From the sequence record OZ335961.1: 64,000 nt of DNA; one strand, given 5' to 3'. Origin of the DNA: a phage. Both the position numbers and the translations under genes were made by a program. Below are positions 32,441-39,508 of this stretch, one piece after another; position 1 is the first letter of the stretch; every line of letters begins with the position of its first letter. Under the pieces are notes generated by a model that worked only from the letters and a program-made list of their open reading frames with translations, did not search any database and was not told the origin of the DNA.

Positions 32441-32659
32441 TTAAACTCTCGTATTATGATTGATAATTTCATCAAGAAACATGTCTAAAGCTTCTACAGC
32501 ATTATCAACTTTAGCTTCAAGTTCTTCAATACCTGACGAAGCAAAGTTAATGCGTTCCTCATCTGCTTTGCGAATTAAAGCTACCAATTCTTTAAATTTA
32601 TCTGCTTGTTCAATGCTAATCATTATTCCACCACGTATGAAAGAGAGAATATTGCACAC
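32441..32659 (-). CDS. Hypothetical protein
   Basis: 72 aa, GTG start. Confidence 0.45.
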
Positions 32660-32811
32660 GCCATATGAGTTGCAGCTTCATCACACATATCATAACGTTT
32701 CTTAAGAAGTTCTACAAGTTCTTCACTAGTAACTTCATCCATGTCGACGAAAAAATCACCATTAATGATGACGTAGATATTTCCTTCTTGATTGAGTGCT
32801 TCAATTTTCAT
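32623..32811 (-). CDS. Hypothetical protein
   Basis: ATG 32811 with AAGAGGAG SD; ORF-track start 32856 lies inside the promoter element. Confidence 0.5.
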
Positions 32812-32835
32812 GATGTTCTCCTCTTTATCCGATAG

Positions 32836-32871
32836 TTGTATAGTATCACAGCTCAAATGGAAAGTAAACCG
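32836..32871 (-). promoter_or_regulatory. T4-type early promoter
   Basis: GTTTACT / TGTGATACTAT element. Confidence 0.5.
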
Positions 32872-32885
32872 GTAAAATGAAAAAA

Positions 32886-32901
32886 GTCTCCCGAAGGAGA
32901 C
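32886..32901 (-). other. UUCG tetraloop hairpin
   Basis: GTCTCCCGAAGGAGAC. Confidence 0.55.
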
Positions 32902-32906
32902 TAATG

Positions 32907-33293
32907 TTATTCGAGGGAAAGAAGATATTTGCTCTGGTAAAACATCCCAGTAATATCATCTATCGTGCTTTGAATGGCTGGAGGCATTTCTTTATAAATG
33001 CTGTTAGATTGGTCTAGTATGTGATCAATCATTTTAATTGTGTCGGTAGGAAGTTTACTAGCATCTGGAATTGAAGGTGTGTATTTTCTACCAGAATACC
33101 CCAAATATTGCTCACCAAATTTATCAATCAAATCTGGCAACTCAGAGAAAATAAAATCGTATGCTTTGTGTCTAGCATAACTTTTAGTTTCAAAATGAGC
33201 AGAATGAAAATAAGCTTGTGCAGCCATTAATAAACCTAAGTATTCATCTGCCTTTGAAGGTTTTCCACTCTGTGAAAAGTCGCTGAATTTCAT
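32907..33293 (-). CDS. Hypothetical protein (rI.-1 position)
   Basis: 128 aa directly upstream of rI. Confidence 0.55.
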
Positions 33294-33583
33294 TCAGTCT
33301 CCAATTTAATGTTCATAATTCTAGCGTATGATTGTGCCATCTCCGCGCCTCGCTCTATACATTCAAAATCGGAAGAGCACGGGTCATTTTTATAAGTCGT
33401 TCGCATAAAACTATAGAACTGTTCAGATGATTCTACGCTTTTATTTTCAAAAAGCATATAAACGTGTCTAATACCAGATTCCATAAATTTATCAAAATGA
33501 GGATCGACATTCGCTTCAATCGGTGGAGATAAAGCAAACGCTAATCCTAGCATGGCAAATAGTGCCGTTGCTTTTAAGGCCAT
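33290..33583 (-). CDS. rI: rI lysis inhibition regulator (signal-anchor protein)
   Basis: 97 aa, near-identical to T4 rI as recalled (MALKATALFAMLGL...). Confidence 0.9.
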   Translation of the reverse strand: MALKATALFAMLGLAFALSPPIEANVDPHFDKFMESGIRHVYMLFENKSVESSEQFYSFMRTTYKNDPCSSDFECIERGAEMAQSYARIMNIKLETE

Positions 33584-33595
33584 AAAGGCCTCCTA

Positions 33596-33808
33596 TCATT
33601 TTTGTCCTGTATTTACTTTATGCCGGTGCACGGCCTTAACTTTATCAAGGTATTTTTCAAAATTTCGCAATCTAGTATAGTCTGCTGGAGATTGGTTGAG
33701 TGATACTTCTCGACGCAAAGCTGAAATGATATTTCCAACTTCCCTACGAATTTCATCTAATTGAAGAACAGTAAGATTGCGAAGTTGCTTTTCAGTTAAT
33801 TGTAGCAT
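33596..33808 (-). CDS. Hypothetical protein
   Basis: 70 aa tiled ORF. Confidence 0.5.
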
Positions 33809-33850
33809 ATATACCCCTTTAGTTAGATAAACCTATTTATAACTTTTGCA

Positions 33851-34432
33851 CTAACCGAGCTTTTTAGTTAATTCATTCCAATGTTTTCTGCACAAAGAAA
33901 CATAAATTTCATCACCAATACAGATTTGATTACCTTCTTTAACTGGTGTTCCATCTTCCATTAATCGAGCTGTCATAATAGCTTTTTTACCACAATGACA
34001 AACTGCTTTTAGTTCAATAAGTTTATCTGCAATCGCCAAAAGTTCTTTAGAACCTTCAAATAATTTTCCAGCGAAATCAGTCCTTAGACCATAAGCCATA
34101 ACAGGAACATTATATGTATCAACAATTCTGCTTAATTGATGTACCTGTTCAGTTTTTAAAAACTGGGCTTCATCTACAAATACACAATGAATATCTTTTT
34201 GTGCTTCAGCCCATTTATAGAACTCAAAAATATCCATATCATCCGTAATAATATTCGCTTCCTGTTTAATTCCAATGCGAGAAACGACTTCACAGACAGA
34301 ATCGCGAGTATCAATAGCAGGCTTAAGAACTAATACACCCATTCCACGTTCTTTATAATTATGCGCAGCAGTCAAAAGAGAAGCAGATTTTCCAGCATTC
34401 ATTGCTGCATAAGTAAAAATTAAACTCGCCAT
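33851..34432 (-). CDS. tk: Thymidine kinase
   Basis: 193 aa, Walker A AAMNAGKS, near-identical to T4 Tk as recalled. Confidence 0.95.
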   Translation of the reverse strand: MASLIFTYAAMNAGKSASLLTAAHNYKERGMGVLVLKPAIDTRDSVCEVVSRIGIKQEANIITDDMDIFEFYKWAEAQKDIHCVFVDEAQFLKTEQVHQLSRIVDTYNVPVMAYGLRTDFAGKLFEGSKELLAIADKLIELKAVCHCGKKAIMTARLMEDGTPVKEGNQICIGDEIYVSLCRKHWNELTKKLG

Positions 34433-34441
34433 ATCACCTTC

Positions 34442-34627
34442 TTAAAGCGTATTCACATAAGCTATTAATTCGTTTTCTTTCTTATCAAACCGATCAGCAA
34501 ATTCTTCTTGCTGTTCGGGAGATAGCGGGCCATATTCATCATAAAAGGTGTTTGCTTCTGTATGCTCATCTAGAAGTTCATGGATAAGCTCAAACAATTT
34601 ATCTTTTTGTTCTTTACTCAGACTCAT
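34442..34627 (-). CDS. Hypothetical acidic protein
   Basis: 61 aa tiled ORF. Confidence 0.5.
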   Translation of the reverse strand: MSLSKEQKDKLFELIHELLDEHTEANTFYDEYGPLSPEQQEEFADRFDKKENELIAYVNTL

Positions 34628-34797
34628 ATATTAATTTCCAGGAGTTTTAAAATAATTCGCTTTTGCTTAAATATTTCCACAGTTAAATGATCAGTATCTT
34701 TTTGGTCAATTCCAGTTGCAAAACCTTTATTAACAGCGAGTTCAATTAAATTATCAAGTTCACGTAACACTTCATATTGTAGCTCAGAACTATTCAT
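34624..34797 (-). CDS. Small protein (57 aa), not in ORF track
   Basis: ATG 34797 overlaps upstream stop (ATGA); its stop overlaps next ATG (ATGA). Confidence 0.45.
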   Translation of the reverse strand: MNSSELQYEVLRELDNLIELAVNKGFATGIDQKDTDHLTVEIFKQKRIILKLLEINI

Positions 34798-35021
34798 TTC
34801 GGTTTACCTTCTTTAACGAAATCAGGATAAGGATAAAATCCTGAATAAAATCCTTCACCTTTATGATTGATGCATCCTTTATTAGAACAATAGCACCAAT
34901 AATCGAAATCACAAGTCATTTCATCATTACATAAAGCAAAAACAACTGGCCATTTACACTTTTCGCAGTGGGCATTTTTAAGAATACTAGTTTGGCTCAT
35001 AACCATGTAACCTTTAAGCAA
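34794..35021 (-). CDS. Cys-rich small protein (possible Zn-binding)
   Basis: 75 aa with 9 Cys (CEKCKW, CNDEMTC, CYCSNKGC). Confidence 0.5.
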   Translation of the reverse strand: MLKGYMVMSQTSILKNAHCEKCKWPVVFALCNDEMTCDFDYWCYCSNKGCINHKGEGFYSGFYPYPDFVKEGKPK

Positions 35022-35209
35022 TATTCTTCTACATGTTGTTTACGACCTTTCTTATCAATAAAGGTATATTCAACGAATGTTCCAATATAGTCTTTATCTA
35101 CATTATGTGGACTATTAATTGGGCATTTAGTACGGCAAATGCGTTCCCATTGACGAATAACTTCTGCTTTGTTTTTAGGATCAAACGGATGCGGGTAATG
35201 TACTTTCAT
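34997..35209 (-). CDS. Hypothetical protein
   Basis: 70 aa tiled ORF. Confidence 0.45.
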   Translation of the reverse strand: MKVHYPHPFDPKNKAEVIRQWERICRTKCPINSPHNVDKDYIGTFVEYTFIDKKGRKQHVEEYCLKVTWL

Positions 35210-35660
35210 AATCCACCACTATTAAATCAATATCAGGAGTAAACATGTCGATTAATTTAGAAACCTTATCCCAATCACCGCCAGCAATACCACAACCTAT
35301 GCGTGGAATATAAATTACTGGTTTAAACAAAAGGGTTTCTGCCTGTTGATTTAATTCTATCATACAGTTTACTAAAGCACCATAATCAAGATTAGGACCC
35401 GGTTCGTATTGCGTATACAGGTTATAGCATATACCAAATCCCGTAGGATTATGTTTAAAAACAATAGACATATCGCCTAATTTATCACGAGAACCGTACT
35501 CGGTAGTGGTTTTATCTATTTCTAAAATTTTGGGATAGGCTCTTGCTAATTGACCTGCTACACCAGAGCCCATTGTGTGGAAGCAATTGCACCCGTGCGC
35601 AATAATATTACCTTGAAGAAATAGGGCGACAATATCGCCCTTGATATATTTTACAATCAT
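35181..35660 (-). CDS. Macro-domain-like protein (putative ADP-ribose binding/processing)
   Basis: 159 aa; motifs KGDIVA, HGCNCF..GSGVAGQLA, IGCGIAGG resemble macro domain signatures. Confidence 0.5.
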   Translation of the reverse strand: MIVKYIKGDIVALFLQGNIIAHGCNCFHTMGSGVAGQLARAYPKILEIDKTTTEYGSRDKLGDMSIVFKHNPTGFGICYNLYTQYEPGPNLDYGALVNCMIELNQQAETLLFKPVIYIPRIGCGIAGGDWDKVSKLIDMFTPDIDLIVVDYESTLPASV

Positions 35661-36004
35661 CTAGTACTCAATCCTCGATTATAAGAATCTACTAAACGGT
35701 CAACCATTGAATGACAAGCGGCTTTATCTTTCTCCTCCGCAACTGAACATTCTAAAGTATTCCACTTTTTAGCATATCGTTTTAACAATGTATCATTTTT
35801 ATATCTGCTTGATTTATCTCTTTCTCCATCTTTATATGCATATATTAATTTCTGCGCAAATTCAGCTTGGCATGCTTTATTTTTTCCGCAATAATCCGCG
35901 GCAGTACGGTTTACATACTCTCTAATTTCAGTATATGATGTATCTGCTGATGCAGAAGCAGAAAATGAAATTAATCCTATACATAAAACCAAAATTTTAG
36001 TCAT
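35657..36004 (-). CDS. Secreted/periplasmic small protein
   Basis: 115 aa, N-terminal signal peptide (MTKILVLCIGLISFSASASA). Confidence 0.55.
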   Translation of the reverse strand: MTKILVLCIGLISFSASASADTSYTEIREYVNRTAADYCGKNKACQAEFAQKLIYAYKDGERDKSSRYKNDTLLKRYAKKWNTLECSVAEEKDKAACHSMVDRLVDSYNRGLSTR

Positions 36005-36542
36005 TTACTATTTCCAAAAGTTTATTATTTTTAAGGTAGTTAGCCTTTTCTAGGACTTCAGAAGCATATTTAGAACCTGCTTTAACATTCCATCCCGAAT
36101 TATAAGAGGATATTGCTTTTCTTATATCGCCCTTATGTATATTTAACCAATAAGAAAGTTCAATGTACGCCCAGGAAGCTGAATTGGACCGTTTATTCAA
36201 CATTCTTTTTATTTCAGCATCGGTCATATTATAACCAAGTTCCTTAACTCTTGCTCGCATGGTTGGCAAATAATTTTGGAACATTCCGTAGGCATGATGC
36301 TTTGGTTTAGATTTTAAATTAACTCCGGCAGAGCTTTCTTGCCATAAAATAGCAGCCATTATATGACCTAATCCGCTTTTGTGGATATTTTTGTGTGTTT
36401 TATATTTTCCATCCTTAGAAAATTGTTCCCCGAATTGATATGCGTAACGCATGTTATCGAGTTGGACATTACTGAAAGTATGCTCGGAGCTATGCGCCAT
36501 CATTGAAATGGCCAATAGACCAGCGAGTAGTGCTTTTCTCAT
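35997..36542 (-). CDS. Secreted lytic transglycosylase-like protein
   Basis: 181 aa; signal peptide; motifs WQESS and GMFQ typical of lysozyme-like Slt domains. Confidence 0.55.
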   Translation of the reverse strand: MRKALLAGLLAISMMAHSSEHTFSNVQLDNMRYAYQFGEQFSKDGKYKTHKNIHKSGLGHIMAAILWQESSAGVNLKSKPKHHAYGMFQNYLPTMRARVKELGYNMTDAEIKRMLNKRSNSASWAYIELSYWLNIHKGDIRKAISSYNSGWNVKAGSKYASEVLEKANYLKNNKLLEIVND

Positions 36543-36549
36543 GCTTACC

Positions 36550-37011
36550 TCATTGAGTTTTAATTACTGCTTTAGAAGCCTTTCCTGGTAAACGACGACT
36601 GTTGATAATTGCCATCCTGCACTGAAGTGACGGGTCTTTGAACTTCGCATTAGGTTTACAAACTGTAAATCCAAGCCAAAGATTTCCATCTGTGATTTCT
36701 AAACGTCCAGGACGATATTCGACCCCATCAATAAAATCCTCGTCAATGTCAGGACGCGGAGGCATACTCAAGAATTCATTAACTTCTAAAACATGGTCTT
36801 TTATTTTGTGGAATAATTCAAAAACATATGTCTCATCAATCTCCCGCTGAATTGCACGATCAAGAAGATGCTGAGAATATTTTAGATGAAACGATGAGAC
36901 TCCTGCTGCTTTTGATGCCTCACGAATCTCATTGTTAATTTGACGAAACTCCGACTCAAAGTGACGACGGAGCTTATTTCGACGGATAAAAACTTCTGTG
37001 TTGATAGTCAT
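36550..37011 (-). CDS. regB: RegB endoribonuclease
   Basis: 153 aa, near-identical to T4 RegB as recalled. Confidence 0.93.
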   Translation of the reverse strand: MTINTEVFIRRNKLRRHFESEFRQINNEIREASKAAGVSSFHLKYSQHLLDRAIQREIDETYVFELFHKIKDHVLEVNEFLSMPPRPDIDEDFIDGVEYRPGRLEITDGNLWLGFTVCKPNAKFKDPSLQCRMAIINSRRLPGKASKAVIKTQ

Positions 37012-37037
37012 GTTATTCTCCTCTTAACTGATAGAAA

Positions 37038-37069
37038 AATTATACCACAGTCAAGAGGAAAAGTAAACA
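37038..37069 (-). promoter_or_regulatory. T4-type early promoter for regB
   Basis: GTTTACT then 17 nt then TGTGGTATAAT. Confidence 0.55.
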
Positions 37070-37070
37070 G

Positions 37071-37349
37071 TTATTCTTTAAATCTAATCAATTTATTCAT
37101 AGACTTTGAAACTTCTGCACGGACCTCATGTAGGTTTTTAAGCTGTTCAAGACGTTGCTCATAGTAAGCAATTTCATCTTCTTCAAGACAGTCCTGTGAA
37201 TCTTCTTTAAGATAACGTGCATAGTCCTGGAAAGCTTTACGGACTACTTCTTGGAAGTCATCAAGACTTTGAATTTTCTTAGGAGCAACAGATACACGAC
37301 GAGGGGCAGTATAATACTCATAACCAAACCCTGCGCTTAATTGAGCCAT
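37071..37349 (-). CDS. Hypothetical protein
   Basis: ATG 37349 ([13 protein letters not shown]...) coupled to upstream stop; ORF-track start 37391 overlaps the upstream gene. Confidence 0.5.
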
Positions 37350-37615
37350 TAGTATTTTTCCTCTGGTTGGAACACAGCACGACAAGCCCACATACTGGCT
37401 TCTTTGAGTTTCGTTTTAGCAATAGTTAACTGATCGAGGCTTTCAGCATAATTCTTCGTGAATTCACAGTCTTCACAATTATCTAGTGCTTCCCAGAATT
37501 CATCATATAAAGCATCAAAGATAAGTCCTAAACGAACTTCAGCATCTTTGATAGCATTCACTTTACTGATTTTATCGTCAGTATGTGGCTTATAACCTTT
37601 AATATCTTCAATCAT
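37349..37615 (-). CDS. Small acidic protein at the T4 vs.4 position (possible Acb2-like sponge)
   Basis: 88 aa; position in the regB-ipII gene block; identification from gene order only, not sequence-verified. Confidence 0.4.
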
Positions 37616-37829
37616 ATTCTACTTCCTCACCAGTGCCCAAATCATATTCAACTAAACGAATAGGTTCATGAATGCCATATCCTTGAACAGAAATTTCTGT
37701 TGTAGGATAAATTCCATTAATATCACCCATGTTCCATGCTTCATTAAATTGCTGTTCGCCTGAATTACTAAACCATTCGGCGAAAGCATTTAACACATCT
37801 TCAGAACCTTCAATAATTATCTTTGCCAT
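37608..37829 (-). CDS. Hypothetical acidic protein
   Basis: 73 aa tiled ORF. Confidence 0.5.
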   Translation of the reverse strand: MAKIIIEGSEDVLNAFAEWFSNSGEQQFNEAWNMGDINGIYPTTEISVQGYGIHEPIRLVEYDLGTGEEVEYD

Positions 37830-38191
37830 TACAAGCTCTCAGTAAAGGTACGAGCAATAACGTCGCGTTGCTGTTCCGGAGTCAGAGAGTTAAAGCGAAC
37901 TGCATATCCGGATACACGGATGGTCAGCTGCGGATATTTTTCCGGATGCTTAACTGCATCTTCCAGAGTTTCACGACGCAGAACGTTAACGTTCAGGTGT
38001 TGACCACCTTCAATTTTAACTGTAGGTTGTGTTTCAATTTCAATTTCACGGGTGTGCAAACCGTAGAAAATTTCTGGGTCTACAAAAGAGTCCTCTTTAA
38101 AGGTTTTAGAAACAATAATTCGTGCTTGAATACCATCTTCAAAATAAATAGTACCTTTATGTGTGCCTTCAAGAATTTGATATGCTTTCAT
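37829..38191 (-). CDS. Autonomous glycyl radical cofactor (GrcA/YfiD-like)
   Basis: 120 aa; C-terminus [29 protein letters not shown] matches E. coli GrcA glycyl radical region. Confidence 0.85.
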
Positions 38192-38198
38192 ATAAACC

Positions 38199-38528
38199 TC
38201 AATTAGAAAATAAATTTATCCAAGATTGCTCTTTAATTAAAAATGGCTCAGAATCATATGCCATTAAACTTTGGGTGATTAGTCCTTTAAAAGGTCCATC
38301 AATAAATTCCATGGTAAAATACGGAATTTTATTCATTAATCTTGCATTAGGAGCAGTACACAAAACTCTGCATCCTTTGAATACGCCTTTTTGTAATTTG
38401 TACTGCTTAGGATAAAATTCGCTCAAGACGTTATTATTTGCTAAAATTTCAAAATGATTCACCAATTTATTTTTAATAGTTTTTGGCGAAAAATAAAGAT
38501 ATTCGAAAAGTTGCGTATCTGTCATCAT
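38199..38528 (-). CDS. Hypothetical protein
   Basis: Likely start [12 protein letters not shown] near 38528. Confidence 0.45.
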
Positions 38529-39112
38529 TGCATTCCAATTACGAAAAACTGCGGACGAGTAATACCACCAATGCAGCATTTACTATTGCAGCAGTGTTGC
38601 ACAGTTTCAATATGAATATCATAAATTTTATCCATATCAGGAGATTTAACAGGCTCATCGATTATATACAAAATTCGAGAAAGCGATAAACCTCTGAACT
38701 TGCTACCTCTATTACCAACAAAACTACGGACAGAATCGGTAAATAAGCGGAATCGAATATCATCGCTAGAATAACGAGAAAATTCTTTTTTAATGTGGCC
38801 CGCAGAAATTTTAGCGTAAGCTGAAGTATTAGAAAGAACAATAACTGTTCCACCATCATATAACCAATTAGCGGCAAAATTAGTTACTGCAGTTGATTTA
38901 CCAGATTGACGTCCACCATCTAGTCGAAGTGTGCAATACTGTTTGAGTAAGTCTTCAAATGGTGGGATATAATCGTTTTTACAAATTTCTTCTACTCTAG
39001 CATCAGAATGGTGTGTAAAAGCATTCATCAGGGATAGATAAGGACCAGTTAAAAATGTTCTCATTTTATTCTCTCTAAATTTGGGCCATTCCATGGCGCA
39101 TGAATTATCCAT
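38525..39112 (-). CDS. P-loop NTPase of unknown function at the position where T4 has denV
   Basis: Walker A GGRQSGKST, Walker B-like ILYIIDE; likely start MRTFLTG at about 39064. Confidence 0.55.
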   Translation of the reverse strand: MDNSCAMEWPKFRENKMRTFLTGPYLSLMNAFTHHSDARVEEICKNDYIPPFEDLLKQYCTLRLDGGRQSGKSTAVTNFAANWLYDGGTVIVLSNTSAYAKISAGHIKKEFSRYSSDDIRFRLFTDSVRSFVGNRGSKFRGLSLSRILYIIDEPVKSPDMDKIYDIHIETVQHCCNSKCCIGGITRPQFFVIGMQ

Positions 39113-39205
39113 TTCTGTATTTACCCATTACCGCACTTGGGCTCGACCTTATTACAGGTTGGCGGGAATCCCTCATAGAATCATGAGGTCCAGCTTGTTC
39201 CCATG

Positions 39206-39508
39206 TTATTTGCCTTTAATTACTTTAGCTGCTTCGATAGCCGCTTGCTGAAGGTCATCCATAGACATACCGAATTTAGAAGCAAAGTTATCAATTTTCT
39301 TTTCGACGGCATTCAAAGGCTTGGCCTGTTTACCTTCATTAGCGCCAGGAAGAGCGAGAATACGCTCTTTGTCAATATAAAGGCTTACAAGTTTCTTACG
39401 GTCTTTATCGGACAAATCATGAAATGAATGGGCCTTTTTATTTATAGCGGCTTCTAATTTACCTGCACTCACTCGCGCTTCAGTAATAAATTCTTGATAT
39501 GTTTTCAT
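39206..39508 (-). CDS. ipII: Internal protein II
   Basis: 100 aa; N-terminal capsid-targeting sequence MKTYQEFITEA; adjacent to ipIII and e as in T4. Confidence 0.75.
   Translation of the reverse strand: MKTYQEFITEARVSAGKLEAAINKKAHSFHDLSDKDRKKLVSLYIDKERILALPGANEGKQAKPLNAVEKKIDNFASKFGMSMDDLQQAAIEAAKVIKGK

What the first reader, a model, noticed from the sequence alone, without database searches (positions are those of the whole stretch)
35181..35660. Macro-domain-like protein in the tk-regB early region
The 159-aa protein has motifs resembling macro domain signatures (GDIVA; HGCNCF..GSGVAGQLA in place of NAAN..GGGVxGAI; IGCGIAGG). A phage macro domain could reverse host ADP-ribosylation or degrade ADP-ribose-derived signals, either of which would be counter-defence relevant.
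Basis: inference. Interest (0 to 1): 0.55.

Follow-up and report, generated by a model that had tools for sequence, protein, structure and literature searches.

The report
Phage tk.4/AdfM macrodomain, anti-DarTG2 factor

Summary

Two points go beyond the literature I read. First, the Tk.4 family has an invariant Gln (Q84, 120/120 homologues) where DarG, TARG1 and PhiKZ AdfM have the catalytic Lys. This matches SCO6735, a thymidine-ADPr DNA hydrolase whose Gln85 is essential. Tk.4-type and PhiKZ-type "AdfM" are therefore distinct lineages (PADLOC DarG 29 vs 133 bits). Second, this allele is a Dhakavirus (JS98)-type cassette in an otherwise ~98-100% T4-identical backbone.

No evidence supports a Thoeris role. 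Verdict: observation and interpretation supported, the kind is already known, interest is modest.

The parts
35181..35660 (-). tk.4 / adfM orthologue: a single-domain macrodomain protein of 159 aa
35553..35597 (-). Loop 1, residues H22-G36 (HGCNCFHTMGSGVAG). It contains N25, the conserved macrodomain Asn, and the GxG motif.
   Evidence: H22, G23, N25 and C26 are present in 118/118 homologues; G33 and A35 in 120/120. The stretch aligns with SCO6735 His24-Val25-Cys26-Asn27. Asn27 is needed for SCO6735 activity, and the equivalent Asn for DarG and PhiKZ AdfM activity.
35409..35423 (-). N80-L-Y-T-Q84 motif. Q84 occupies the position of the catalytic Lys of TARG1 (K84), DarG (K80) and PhiKZ AdfM (K78).
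   Evidence: The DNA reads AAC CTG TAT ACG CAA on the minus strand. N80, Y82 and Q84 are invariant in 120/120 homologues. The profile aligns 'nlYtQ' with TARG1 'yLiTK' and BT1257 'NMIGQ'. A family member aligns its Q with SCO6735 Gln85 and with the K of Mtb DarG 'NFPTK'. The SCO6735 Q85A mutant is inactive (PMC9411070).
35271..35306 (-). Loop 2, residues P119-W130 (PRIGCGIAGGDW), the diphosphate-binding glycine-rich loop. A126 sits where TARG1 has catalytic D125.
   Evidence: P119 and W130 are in 120/120 homologues; G122 and G124 in 119/119. The motif matches SCO6735 'PRIGCGLAGGTW' and BT1257 'PRIGCGLAGGKW', whereas TARG1 has 'PRIGCGLDRLQW'. G124 is equivalent to SCO6735 Gly128, whose G128E mutation reduces activity.
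35657..35660 (-). ATGA overlap of the vs stop codon with the tk.4 start codon, which suggests translational coupling within the early regB-to-rI gene string
   Evidence: Read from the sequence. T4 has the same arrangement.
35180..35640 (.). Mosaic patch: a Dhakavirus (JS98)-type tk.4 allele inside a T4/T2-type backbone
   Evidence: DNA identity to T4 is 40-78% inside the patch, 97-98% from 35637 upward and 90-97% at 35020-35170. The reverse holds against JS98: 87-92% inside tk.4 and 45-60% in vs. At the protein level, Vs is 100% identical to T4 and 45% to JS98, while Tk.4 is 58% to T4 and 92.5% to JS98.
35623..35641 (-). Stable hairpin AGGGCGATATTGTCGCCCT inside codons 7-13 (KGDIVAL); role unknown
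   Evidence: Flagged as terminator-like. Folding energy is about -13 kcal/mol, and the hairpin is conserved in T4, T2, OE5505 and JS98. It is absent from the Karamvirus and Marfavirus alleles, where the amino acids also differ.

Best explanation
The gene is the tk.4/adfM orthologue of a T4-like (Tequatrovirus-backbone) phage. It encodes a stand-alone macrodomain of the TARG1/DarG/SCO6735 (ALC1-like) clade, made early in infection. When the host DarTG2 system is triggered, its toxin DarT2 ADP-ribosylates thymidine N3 in TNTC motifs of single-stranded phage DNA and blocks replication. This protein most likely binds the ADP-ribose moiety in its conserved pocket (N25, the GSG loop, the GCGIAGG loop) and hydrolyses the ribose-thymine bond, restoring normal DNA. 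In effect it acts as an orphan antitoxin.

The catalytic centre is not DarG-like. The catalytic Lys position holds an invariant Gln (Q84) buttressed by N25, as in SCO6735, where Gln positions the distal ribose and a backbone-held water starts the reaction.

Shown here: ORF, fold, clade, residue equivalences, orthology and mosaic origin. Shown in the literature for relatives: T4 tk.4 is required against DarTG2 (genetics), and TARG1, DarG, SCO6735 and PhiKZ AdfM all cleave T-ADPr (biochemistry). Inferred: that this allele has the same activity, and that it uses the Gln-type mechanism.
For: Macro fold and clade:
- Macro fold.

Orthology to T4 tk.4:
- 58% identity over the full length in the same slot between tk.3 and vs. 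The synteny is kept in Dhakavirus, Karamvirus and Marfavirus.

Function of relatives:
- T4 tk.4 was the single significant hit in a DarTG2 transposon screen, and a clean knock-out is sensitised.
- T4 and T2 lacking adfN, and T4 also lacking adfA, remain DarTG2-resistant, so another factor had to exist.
- Every tested enzyme of this clade (TARG1, DarG, SCO6735) removes ADPr from thymine N3 and uracil N3.
- PhiKZ AdfM does so on DarT2-modified DNA.

Gln-type centre:
- Q84 is invariant in 120/120 homologues and aligns to SCO6735 Gln85 and to the TARG1/DarG Lys.
- SCO6735 Q85A and N27S mutants are inactive, and SCO6735 rescues cells from DarT toxicity.
- The PRIGCG(I/L)AGGxW loop is shared with SCO6735 and BT1257.
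Against: - No experiment exists on this allele, and the T4 evidence is genetic only, with no biochemistry on any Tk.4-type protein.
- The allele is only 58% identical to the tested T4 protein and differs in the diphosphate loop (IGCGIAGGDW vs T4 IGAGIGKGNW), so specificity could differ.
- It lacks SCO6735's five-residue-longer, Lys-bearing mobile loop, which that paper links to DNA binding.
- The protein is acidic (net -5). PhiKZ AdfM, which does act on DNA, is equally acidic (-6), so this is weak evidence.
- It fails the DarG family models (29.8 bits vs cutoff 250 on NCBIfam; 29 bits on PADLOC vs 133 for PhiKZ AdfM).
- Iyer et al. 2022 argued on contextual grounds that most phage Macro domains target small soluble ADPr derivatives.
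Confidence: 0.7

Rival explanations
1. It is an ADP-ribose-1''-phosphate phosphatase, or another processor of small soluble ADP-ribose derivatives (Appr1p, O-acetyl-ADPr, NAD-derived immune signals). This is what the traditional 'phosphatase / A1pp' annotation implies.
Against: The annotation comes from a domain name, not an assay. The two other Poa1p residues chosen for mutant structures are not conserved: S30 aligns to the variable T29, and F152 aligns to A126. The only phenotype known for the orthologue is DarTG2 sensitivity, and DarT2 makes a DNA adduct rather than a soluble signal. Appr1p phosphatase activity is a common weak side activity of macrodomains (established knowledge).
Confidence: 0.1
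2. It neutralises DarT2 mainly by binding and inhibiting the toxin (interaction-inhibition) rather than by hydrolysing the DNA adduct.
For: Catalytically dead SCO6735 (Q85A), DarG (K80A) and TARG1 (K84A) all inhibit DarT in vitro, and SCO6735 does so most strongly. The allele-level cassette exchange and the concentration of T4-vs-window differences outside the active-site loops (10/29 identical in residues 51-79 and 6/25 in 131-155, against 42/50 in residues 1-50) would fit a co-evolving protein-protein interface.
Against: The active-site residues are invariant across 120 homologues from very different phages and some bacteria. That is what one expects of an enzyme, not of a toxin-specific binder. 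The protein has no counterpart of DarG's C-terminal DarT-binding domain: it matches only positions 2-142 of the 338-position DarG model.
Confidence: 0.08
3. Its main substrates are ADP-ribosylated proteins or RNA. Examples are modifications made by T4's own Alt/ModA/ModB transferases, or by host RNA- or protein-targeting ADP-ribosyltransferase defences; DarTG2 protection would then be secondary.
For: SCO6735 and TARG1 also de-modify Glu/Asp-linked proteins. TARG1, DarG and SCO6735 also cleave uracil-linked ADPr on RNA. T4-like phages carry several ADP-ribosyltransferases (established knowledge).
Against: Alt and ModA modify arginine (established knowledge), a linkage this macrodomain clade is not known to reverse. 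In the T4 screen tk.4 was dispensable on plain E. coli K-12 and became important specifically with DarTG2. No transferase gene lies next to it.
Confidence: 0.08
4. It degrades or sequesters Thoeris-type cyclic ADP-ribose signals.
For: This rests only on the general idea that macro domains bind ADP-ribose derivatives. ThsA has a Macro-type sensor domain (8v6q).
Confidence: 0.02

Closest known systems
T4 Tk.4 = AdfM (anti-DarT factor Macrodomain; bioRxiv 10.1101/2025.11.20.689424)
   Same: Same gene slot (tk.3 | tk.4 | vs), the same ATGA coupling to vs, single-domain proteins of 155 and 159 aa, and 58% identity over the full length. All active-site residues are shared (H22, N25, N80, Y82, T83, Q84, G122, G124, W130).
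   Different: Identity is only 58% in a backbone that is otherwise 97-100% T4-identical. The diphosphate loop is IGCGIAGGDW here and IGAGIGKGNW in T4. There is a 4-aa C-terminal extension overlapping tk.3 by 29 nt. This allele has not been tested against DarTG2.
SCO6735 of Streptomyces coelicolor (PDB 5E3B; PMC9411070)
   Same: A stand-alone macrodomain of the same clade with no adjacent darT. Gln sits at the catalytic-Lys position, and the H-x-C-N and PRIGCGxAGGxW motifs are the same. It has been shown to cleave thymidine-linked ADPr on DNA and to rescue cells from DarT.
   Different: SCO6735 has a mobile loop five residues longer, carrying Lys89/Lys94, and an electropositive surface. The window protein has the short loop QYEPGPNLDY and is acidic. 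Val25 of SCO6735 is Gly23 here; only the backbone is implicated in catalysis.
DarG antitoxin macrodomain (T. aquaticus 5M31/5M3E, M. tuberculosis 5M3I) and PhiKZ gp104 AdfM (PMC13309987)
   Different: These proteins use a catalytic Lys (K80 in DarG, K78 in PhiKZ gp104) where the window protein has Gln. DarG also has a C-terminal DarT-binding domain and sits next to darT. PhiKZ gp104 scores 133 bits on the PADLOC DarG model against 29 for the window protein, and shares only ~20% identity with it.
Human TARG1/OARD1 (PDB 4J5S)
   Same: Best Foldseek match (E=2.4e-10, TM 0.72-0.83). The sequences align without gaps around the catalytic strand, and TARG1 has T-ADPr and U-ADPr hydrolase activity.
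   Different: The TARG1 catalytic dyad K84/D125 corresponds to Q84/A126 here.
BT1257 of Bacteroides thetaiotaomicron (PDB 2AFC/2FG1) and yeast Poa1p (PDB 6LFQ)
   Different: BT1257 has no described function. Poa1p is an Appr1p phosphatase whose S30 and F152 are not conserved here.

Membership tests
Macro domain superfamily (Pfam PF01661) | Profile score above the curated gathering threshold | tested here: met
   35 bits against a cutoff of 22, E=1.5e-8, covering profile positions 2-117 of 118.
Macro domain superfamily (Pfam PF01661) | Three-layer alpha/beta/alpha macro fold | tested here: met
Macro domain superfamily (Pfam PF01661) | ADP-ribose pocket: a conserved Asn and GxG in loop 1, and a Gly-rich diphosphate loop 2 | tested here: met
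   N25, G31-S-G33 and G122-C-G124-I-A-G-G128 are invariant or nearly so in 120 homologues. They align with the ligand-binding loops of TARG1, SCO6735 and DarG. Actual ligand binding was not tested.
ALC1-like / TARG1-like macrodomain clade (TARG1, DarG, SCO6735, Poa1p, BT1257) | Closer in sequence and structure to clade members than to MacroD, PARG, macroH2A or viral Mac1 types | tested here: met
T4 tk.4 / adfM orthologous group | Full-length similarity and a conserved position between tk.3 and vs in the regB-tk cluster | tested here: met
   58% identity over 155 aa, E=3e-71. It is the best and only T4 match in the locus. The synteny holds in T4, T2, JS98, Karamvirus and Marfavirus.
T4 tk.4 / adfM orthologous group | Protects the phage from DarTG2 | not testable with these tools
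   Shown only for the T4 allele, by a transposon screen and a clean knock-out.
DarG antitoxin (NCBIfam NF048014, PADLOC DarG) | Score above the equivalog cutoff, and a two-domain architecture (macrodomain plus C-terminal DarT-binding domain) | tested here: not met
   29.8 bits against a cutoff of 250, matching only positions 2-142 of 338. The PADLOC DarG score is 29 bits, against 133 for PhiKZ gp104. The protein is 159 aa with a single domain.
DarG antitoxin (NCBIfam NF048014, PADLOC DarG) | Catalytic lysine (K80 in T. aquaticus DarG) | tested here: not met
   The equivalent position is Q84, invariant in 120/120 homologues.
DarG antitoxin (NCBIfam NF048014, PADLOC DarG) | Encoded next to a darT toxin gene | tested here: not met
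   The neighbours are vs, vs.1, regB, tk.3 and tk, the T4 orthologues. A bacterial homologue also has no darT beside it.
SCO6735-type (Gln-dependent) thymidine-ADPr hydrolases | Gln at the catalytic-Lys position, held by the loop-1 Asn | tested here: met
   Q84 corresponds to Gln85 and N25 to Asn27 by direct alignment through family member P0088 and by the profile. Their functional importance in SCO6735 is from PMC9411070.
SCO6735-type (Gln-dependent) thymidine-ADPr hydrolases | Extended, Lys-bearing mobile loop and an electropositive DNA groove | tested here: not met
   The Q-to-Y loop is 10 residues here against 15 in SCO6735, with no Lys. Net charge is -5 and pI 5.0.
SCO6735-type (Gln-dependent) thymidine-ADPr hydrolases | Hydrolysis of N3-thymidine-linked ADP-ribose on ssDNA | not testable with these tools
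   This needs an in vitro assay with DarT2-modified oligonucleotide.
Poa1p-type ADP-ribose-1''-phosphate phosphatase | Conservation of the Poa1p residues probed by mutation (H23, S30, F152) | tested here: inconclusive
   H23 corresponds to the invariant H22. S30 corresponds to T29, which is variable in the family, and F152 to A126. The Poa1p structure paper was not in the library, so the roles of these residues could not be checked.

The most novel reading that the evidence does not exclude
Phages have recruited DNA-thymidine ADP-ribosylglycohydrolases at least twice. PhiKZ-type AdfM derives from Lys-type DarG. Tk.4-type AdfM derives from a separate Gln-type (SCO6735/BT1257-like) housekeeping lineage and uses a lysine-independent, water-mediated mechanism in a short-loop scaffold not yet characterised. 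In addition, the two deeply diverged tk.4 alleles that circulate as exchangeable cassettes among otherwise near-identical T-even phages may differ in specificity: in which DarT2 variants they neutralise, or in which substrates they act on (T-ADPr DNA, U-ADPr RNA or proteins).
Probability: 0.2. Interest if true: 0.55.

Novelty: already known. Interest (0 to 1): 0.3.

Why it matters
DarTG systems stop phages by ADP-ribosylating their DNA, and T-even phages stack several counter-measures: AdfA, AdfN (a NADAR enzyme that counters DarTG1) and Tk.4/AdfM (which counters DarTG2). Recognising this ORF as the adfM orthologue gives it a function and predicts that this phage resists DarTG2 hosts, which is relevant to choosing phages for therapy.

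The residue-level result, Gln rather than Lys at the catalytic position in all 120 homologues, matters to anyone designing catalytic-dead controls or inferring mechanism from DarG. A "K-to-A" mutant cannot be made in Tk.4, and the informative mutants are Q84A and N25A. The result also means that one name, AdfM, now covers two different enzyme lineages.

The cassette-like allele swap is a clear small example of modular exchange at a counter-defence locus. None of this opens a new field, because the family and its role are already published.

Tried and rejected
1. Net charge as a test for a DNA substrate. The protein is acidic (net -5), but PhiKZ AdfM, which is proven to act on DNA, is -6, so charge does not discriminate.
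2. Direct BLASTP and hhalign against PhiKZ gp104. Similarity is only weak (20% identity, probability 96%), and hhalign placed K78 two columns from Q84, next to a 2-residue gap. I did not rely on that placement and used the TARG1, DarG and SCO6735 alignments instead.
3. phmmer with only the C-terminal 105 residues, to force an SCO6735 alignment over the Gln region. It aligned only the GCG loop. Querying with the bacterial family member P0088 solved the problem.
4. Promoter scan. There were 19 sigma-70-like sites against 27 expected by chance, so it says nothing about the gene's own promoter. Early timing is therefore inferred from T4 knowledge and the gene string.
5. The Poa1p structural paper was not in the library, so the phosphatase rival could be assessed only from alignments and PDB entry titles.
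6. I looked for darT next to a bacterial homologue (Pelagimonas) to test an origin from a toxin-antitoxin pair, and found none.
7. A Thoeris link: no literature and no close fold match.
8. Model coordinates are not exposed by the tools, so I could not measure the pocket geometry or the Q84-N25 distance directly.

Full report
**Observation**

The window has an ATG-initiated ORF of 159 codons at 35181..35660 on the minus strand. The surrounding genes on the same strand are thymidine kinase (33851-34432), four small ORFs, this gene, vs (35657-36004), vs.1 (35997-36542) and regB (36550-37011). The Rl.-1, rI, rI.1, Tk, Vs, Vs.1 and RegB proteins are 97-100% identical to those of phage T4. The description "tk-regB early region" is therefore correct, and the window comes from a phage with a T4-type backbone.

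**Is it a macro domain?**

Yes, by every test available.
- Pfam's Macro model (PF01661) matches residues 22-136 over essentially its whole length, at 35 bits against a curated cutoff of 22.
- A plain sequence search of the PDB finds BT1257 (E=4.8e-10), yeast Poa1p, SCO6735, the M. tuberculosis DarG macrodomain and human TARG1/OARD1. A profile of 37 family members raises these matches to E=2.5e-19 through 6e-10.
- AlphaFold2 with that alignment gives a confident model (pLDDT 93.8, pTM 0.88) with alternating strands and helices.
- Foldseek's best hits are TARG1 (E=2.4e-10, TM 0.72-0.83), BT1257, Poa1p and the DarG macrodomains.

The protein therefore belongs to the TARG1-like (ALC1-like) clade.

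**What the gene is**

It is tk.4. The T4 reference record has tk.4 (155 aa) in the same slot between tk.3 and vs, annotated "phosphatase; contains A1pp phosphatase motif". The window protein matches it over the full length at 58% identity, E=3e-71. The slot is conserved in T2, JS98 (Dhakavirus), a Karamvirus and a Marfavirus.

The A1pp (macro) match in tk.4 orthologues was published in 2006 (PMC1524935). Homologues occur in 2784 of 50,697 deposited phage records, where they are annotated "phosphatase", "macro domain protein" or "hypothetical". One record, Shigella phage sb3, encodes an identical protein.

**What is known about function**

- A November 2025 preprint (10.1101/2025.11.20.689424) screened a T4 transposon library on a host expressing DarTG2. 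It found tk.4 as the single significant hit, and a clean tk.4 deletion made T4 sensitive. The authors renamed the gene adfM and proposed, from AlphaFold similarity to M. tuberculosis DarG, that it removes ADP-ribose from DNA. No biochemistry was reported.
- This fits an earlier finding that T4 and T2 lacking adfN, and T4 also lacking adfA, are still DarTG2-resistant (PMC11825919).
- Independently, a Cell Reports 2026 paper gave the same name, AdfM, to PhiKZ gp104. It showed biochemically that gp104 removes ADP-ribose from DarT2-modified DNA, with N23 and K78 as the presumed active-site residues (PMC13309987).
- All enzymes of this clade tested so far (TARG1, DarG, SCO6735) cleave ADP-ribose from thymine N3 and uracil N3 (PMC9411070; PMC13036486).

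**Mechanism: the catalytic centre is not DarG-like**

DarG (K80), TARG1 (K84) and PhiKZ AdfM (K78) carry a lysine at the end of the central strand. In the Tk.4 family that strand reads N80-L-Y-T-Q84.
- The family profile aligns "nlYtQ" to TARG1 "yLiTK84" and to BT1257 "NMIGQ". TARG1's second catalytic residue, D125, falls on Ala126.
- A bacterial family member aligns its "NaYTQ" with SCO6735 "NMIGQ85" and with M. tuberculosis DarG "NFPTK". Its "HGCN" aligns with SCO6735 His24-Val25-Cys26-Asn27. I fixed the chain-to-native offset of 20 using V25, N27, K34, Q85, K89 and G128.
- In an alignment of 120 homologues down to about 40% identity, Q84, N80, Y82, G33, A35, D49, P119 and W130 are present in 120/120, and H22, G23, N25 and C26 in 118/118.

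SCO6735 is the precedent. It lacks the Lys, its Q85A mutant is dead on both DNA and protein substrates, its N27S mutant is nearly dead because Asn27 locks Gln85 in place, and the enzyme efficiently cleaves thymidine-linked ADP-ribose and rescues cells from DarT. The window protein also shares the exact PRIGCG(I/L)AGGxW loop with SCO6735 and BT1257, where TARG1 has PRIGCGLDRLQW.

It differs from SCO6735 in having the short "mobile loop": QYEPGPNLDY is 10 residues against 15, and it has no lysines.

Model scores confirm that the two proteins called AdfM are different lineages. On PADLOC's DarG model, PhiKZ gp104 scores 133 bits, T4 Tk.4 36 and the window protein 29. On NCBIfam's DarG equivalog the window protein scores 29.8 bits against a cutoff of 250, and it covers only the macro part of the model.

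The best-supported mechanism is therefore an orphan, single-domain hydrolase with a Gln-type centre. It removes DarT2's ADP-ribose from thymidine in phage ssDNA. The fold, clade and residue equivalences are shown here. The activity is inferred from orthology and from the behaviour of the clade.

**Expression context**

The start codon overlaps the vs stop codon (ATGA at 35657-35660). The 3' end overlaps the next ORF, the tk.3 homologue starting at 35209, by 29 nt. The genes from regB down to rI.-1 form an uninterrupted same-strand string ending at a terminator-like hairpin at 32885-32902, which is also annotated as a terminator in phage OE5505. Sigma-70-like promoter matches are no more frequent than chance (19 against 27 expected), so nothing can be said about a dedicated promoter. 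Early expression is inferred from general knowledge of this T4 region. It would suit a factor that must act before or during DNA replication.

**Mosaic origin**

DNA identity to T4 is 97-98% through vs. It drops to 40-78% exactly within the tk.4 ORF and returns to 90-97% in tk.3. Against JS98 the pattern is inverted: 87-92% within tk.4 and 45-60% in vs.

| Protein | Identity to T4/T2 | Identity to JS98 |
|---|---|---|
| Vs | 100% | 45% |
| Tk.4 | 58% | 92.5% |

 A second JS98-like patch covers the tk.2 homologue at 34442-34627, which is 90% identical to JS98 and 54-56% to T4 and T2. So tk.4 exists as at least two deeply diverged alleles that move as cassettes between T-even lineages.

The alleles are identical in loop 1 and in the NLYTQ strand. 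They differ in loop 2 (IGCGIAGGDW here, IGAGIGKGNW in T4) and over most of residues 51-79 and 131-155. The window allele is the one closer to the family consensus and to SCO6735 and BT1257. Whether the alleles differ in specificity is unknown.

**Rival explanations**

- *Phosphatase or small-molecule processing.* The old "phosphatase" label rests on a domain name. Poa1p is a close relative and its His23 is conserved, but S30 and F152 are not. I give this reading about 0.1.
- *Direct inhibition of DarT2 by binding.* This is plausible as a secondary mode, because dead SCO6735, DarG and TARG1 all inhibit DarT. The invariant active site across very diverse phages argues for catalysis (about 0.08).
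- *Protein or RNA de-ADP-ribosylation as the main role.* This is possible for the clade, but the T4 phenotype does not suggest it (about 0.08).
- *A Thoeris role.* It has no support (about 0.02).

**Verdict**

Both the macro domain in tk.4 and its counter-defence role are already in the literature, so this is a divergent allele of a known gene. The added value here is the Gln-for-Lys catalytic centre shared with SCO6735, the resulting distinction from PhiKZ-type AdfM, and the cassette-like allele exchange. Interest is modest at 0.3.

Noticed in passing
window 35180-35640, compared with L003 (T4) and L006 (JS98): tk.4 is a cassette-like allele replacement. It is 40-78% identical in DNA to T4 inside the ORF but 97-98% just outside, and the reverse holds against JS98 (87-92% inside, 45-60% in vs).
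   Followed up: yes
window 34442-34627 (-): A second JS98-like patch. The 61-aa Tk.2 homologue is 90% identical to JS98 Tk.2 but only 54-56% to T4 and T2, although tk next door is 99% T4-identical.
   Followed up: partly
window 34624-34797 (-) and 34794-35021 (-): Two small ORFs of 57 aa and 75 aa have no counterpart in the T4 locus. The 75-aa ORF is Cys-rich, with CEKC...C..C...C.C....C.NH. They match T2_114 and T2_115 at 96-99%, and JS98 orf102 at 70%. Their function is unknown, and the cysteine pattern suggests a small zinc-binding protein.
   Followed up: partly
window 35623-35641 (-): A stable hairpin (AGGGCGATATTGTCGCCCT, about -13 kcal/mol) followed by a T-rich tract lies inside tk.4 codons 7-13, 18 nt after the start codon. 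It is conserved in T4, T2, OE5505 and JS98, and lost in the Karamvirus and Marfavirus alleles, where the peptide also differs. It could be an RNA-level signal or a by-product of the GDIVA codons.
   Followed up: partly
window 35181-35209: The tk.4 C-terminus is 4 aa longer than in T4 and overlaps the start of the tk.3 homologue by 29 nt. T4 has a 4-nt overlap, and JS98 has the same 29-nt overlap as the window.
   Followed up: partly
window 32500-39500: Terminator-like hairpins are more frequent than in shuffled sequence (10 found against 3.6 +/- 1.6 expected). One at 32885-32902, just after rI.-1, matches an annotated terminator in phage OE5505.
   Followed up: no
literature: bioRxiv 10.1101/2025.11.20.689424 and PMC13309987: The name AdfM has been given independently to two proteins of different macrodomain lineages: T4 Tk.4 (Gln-type, 36 bits on the PADLOC DarG model) and PhiKZ gp104 (Lys-type, 133 bits). 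This is a likely source of confusion.
   Followed up: yes
L004 6001-6459 (Pelagimonas phthalicica chromosome): A bacterial member of the Tk.4 family (about 41% identity) is a stand-alone gene among housekeeping-type neighbours, with no darT, no phage genes and no defence genes within 6 kb.
   Followed up: partly
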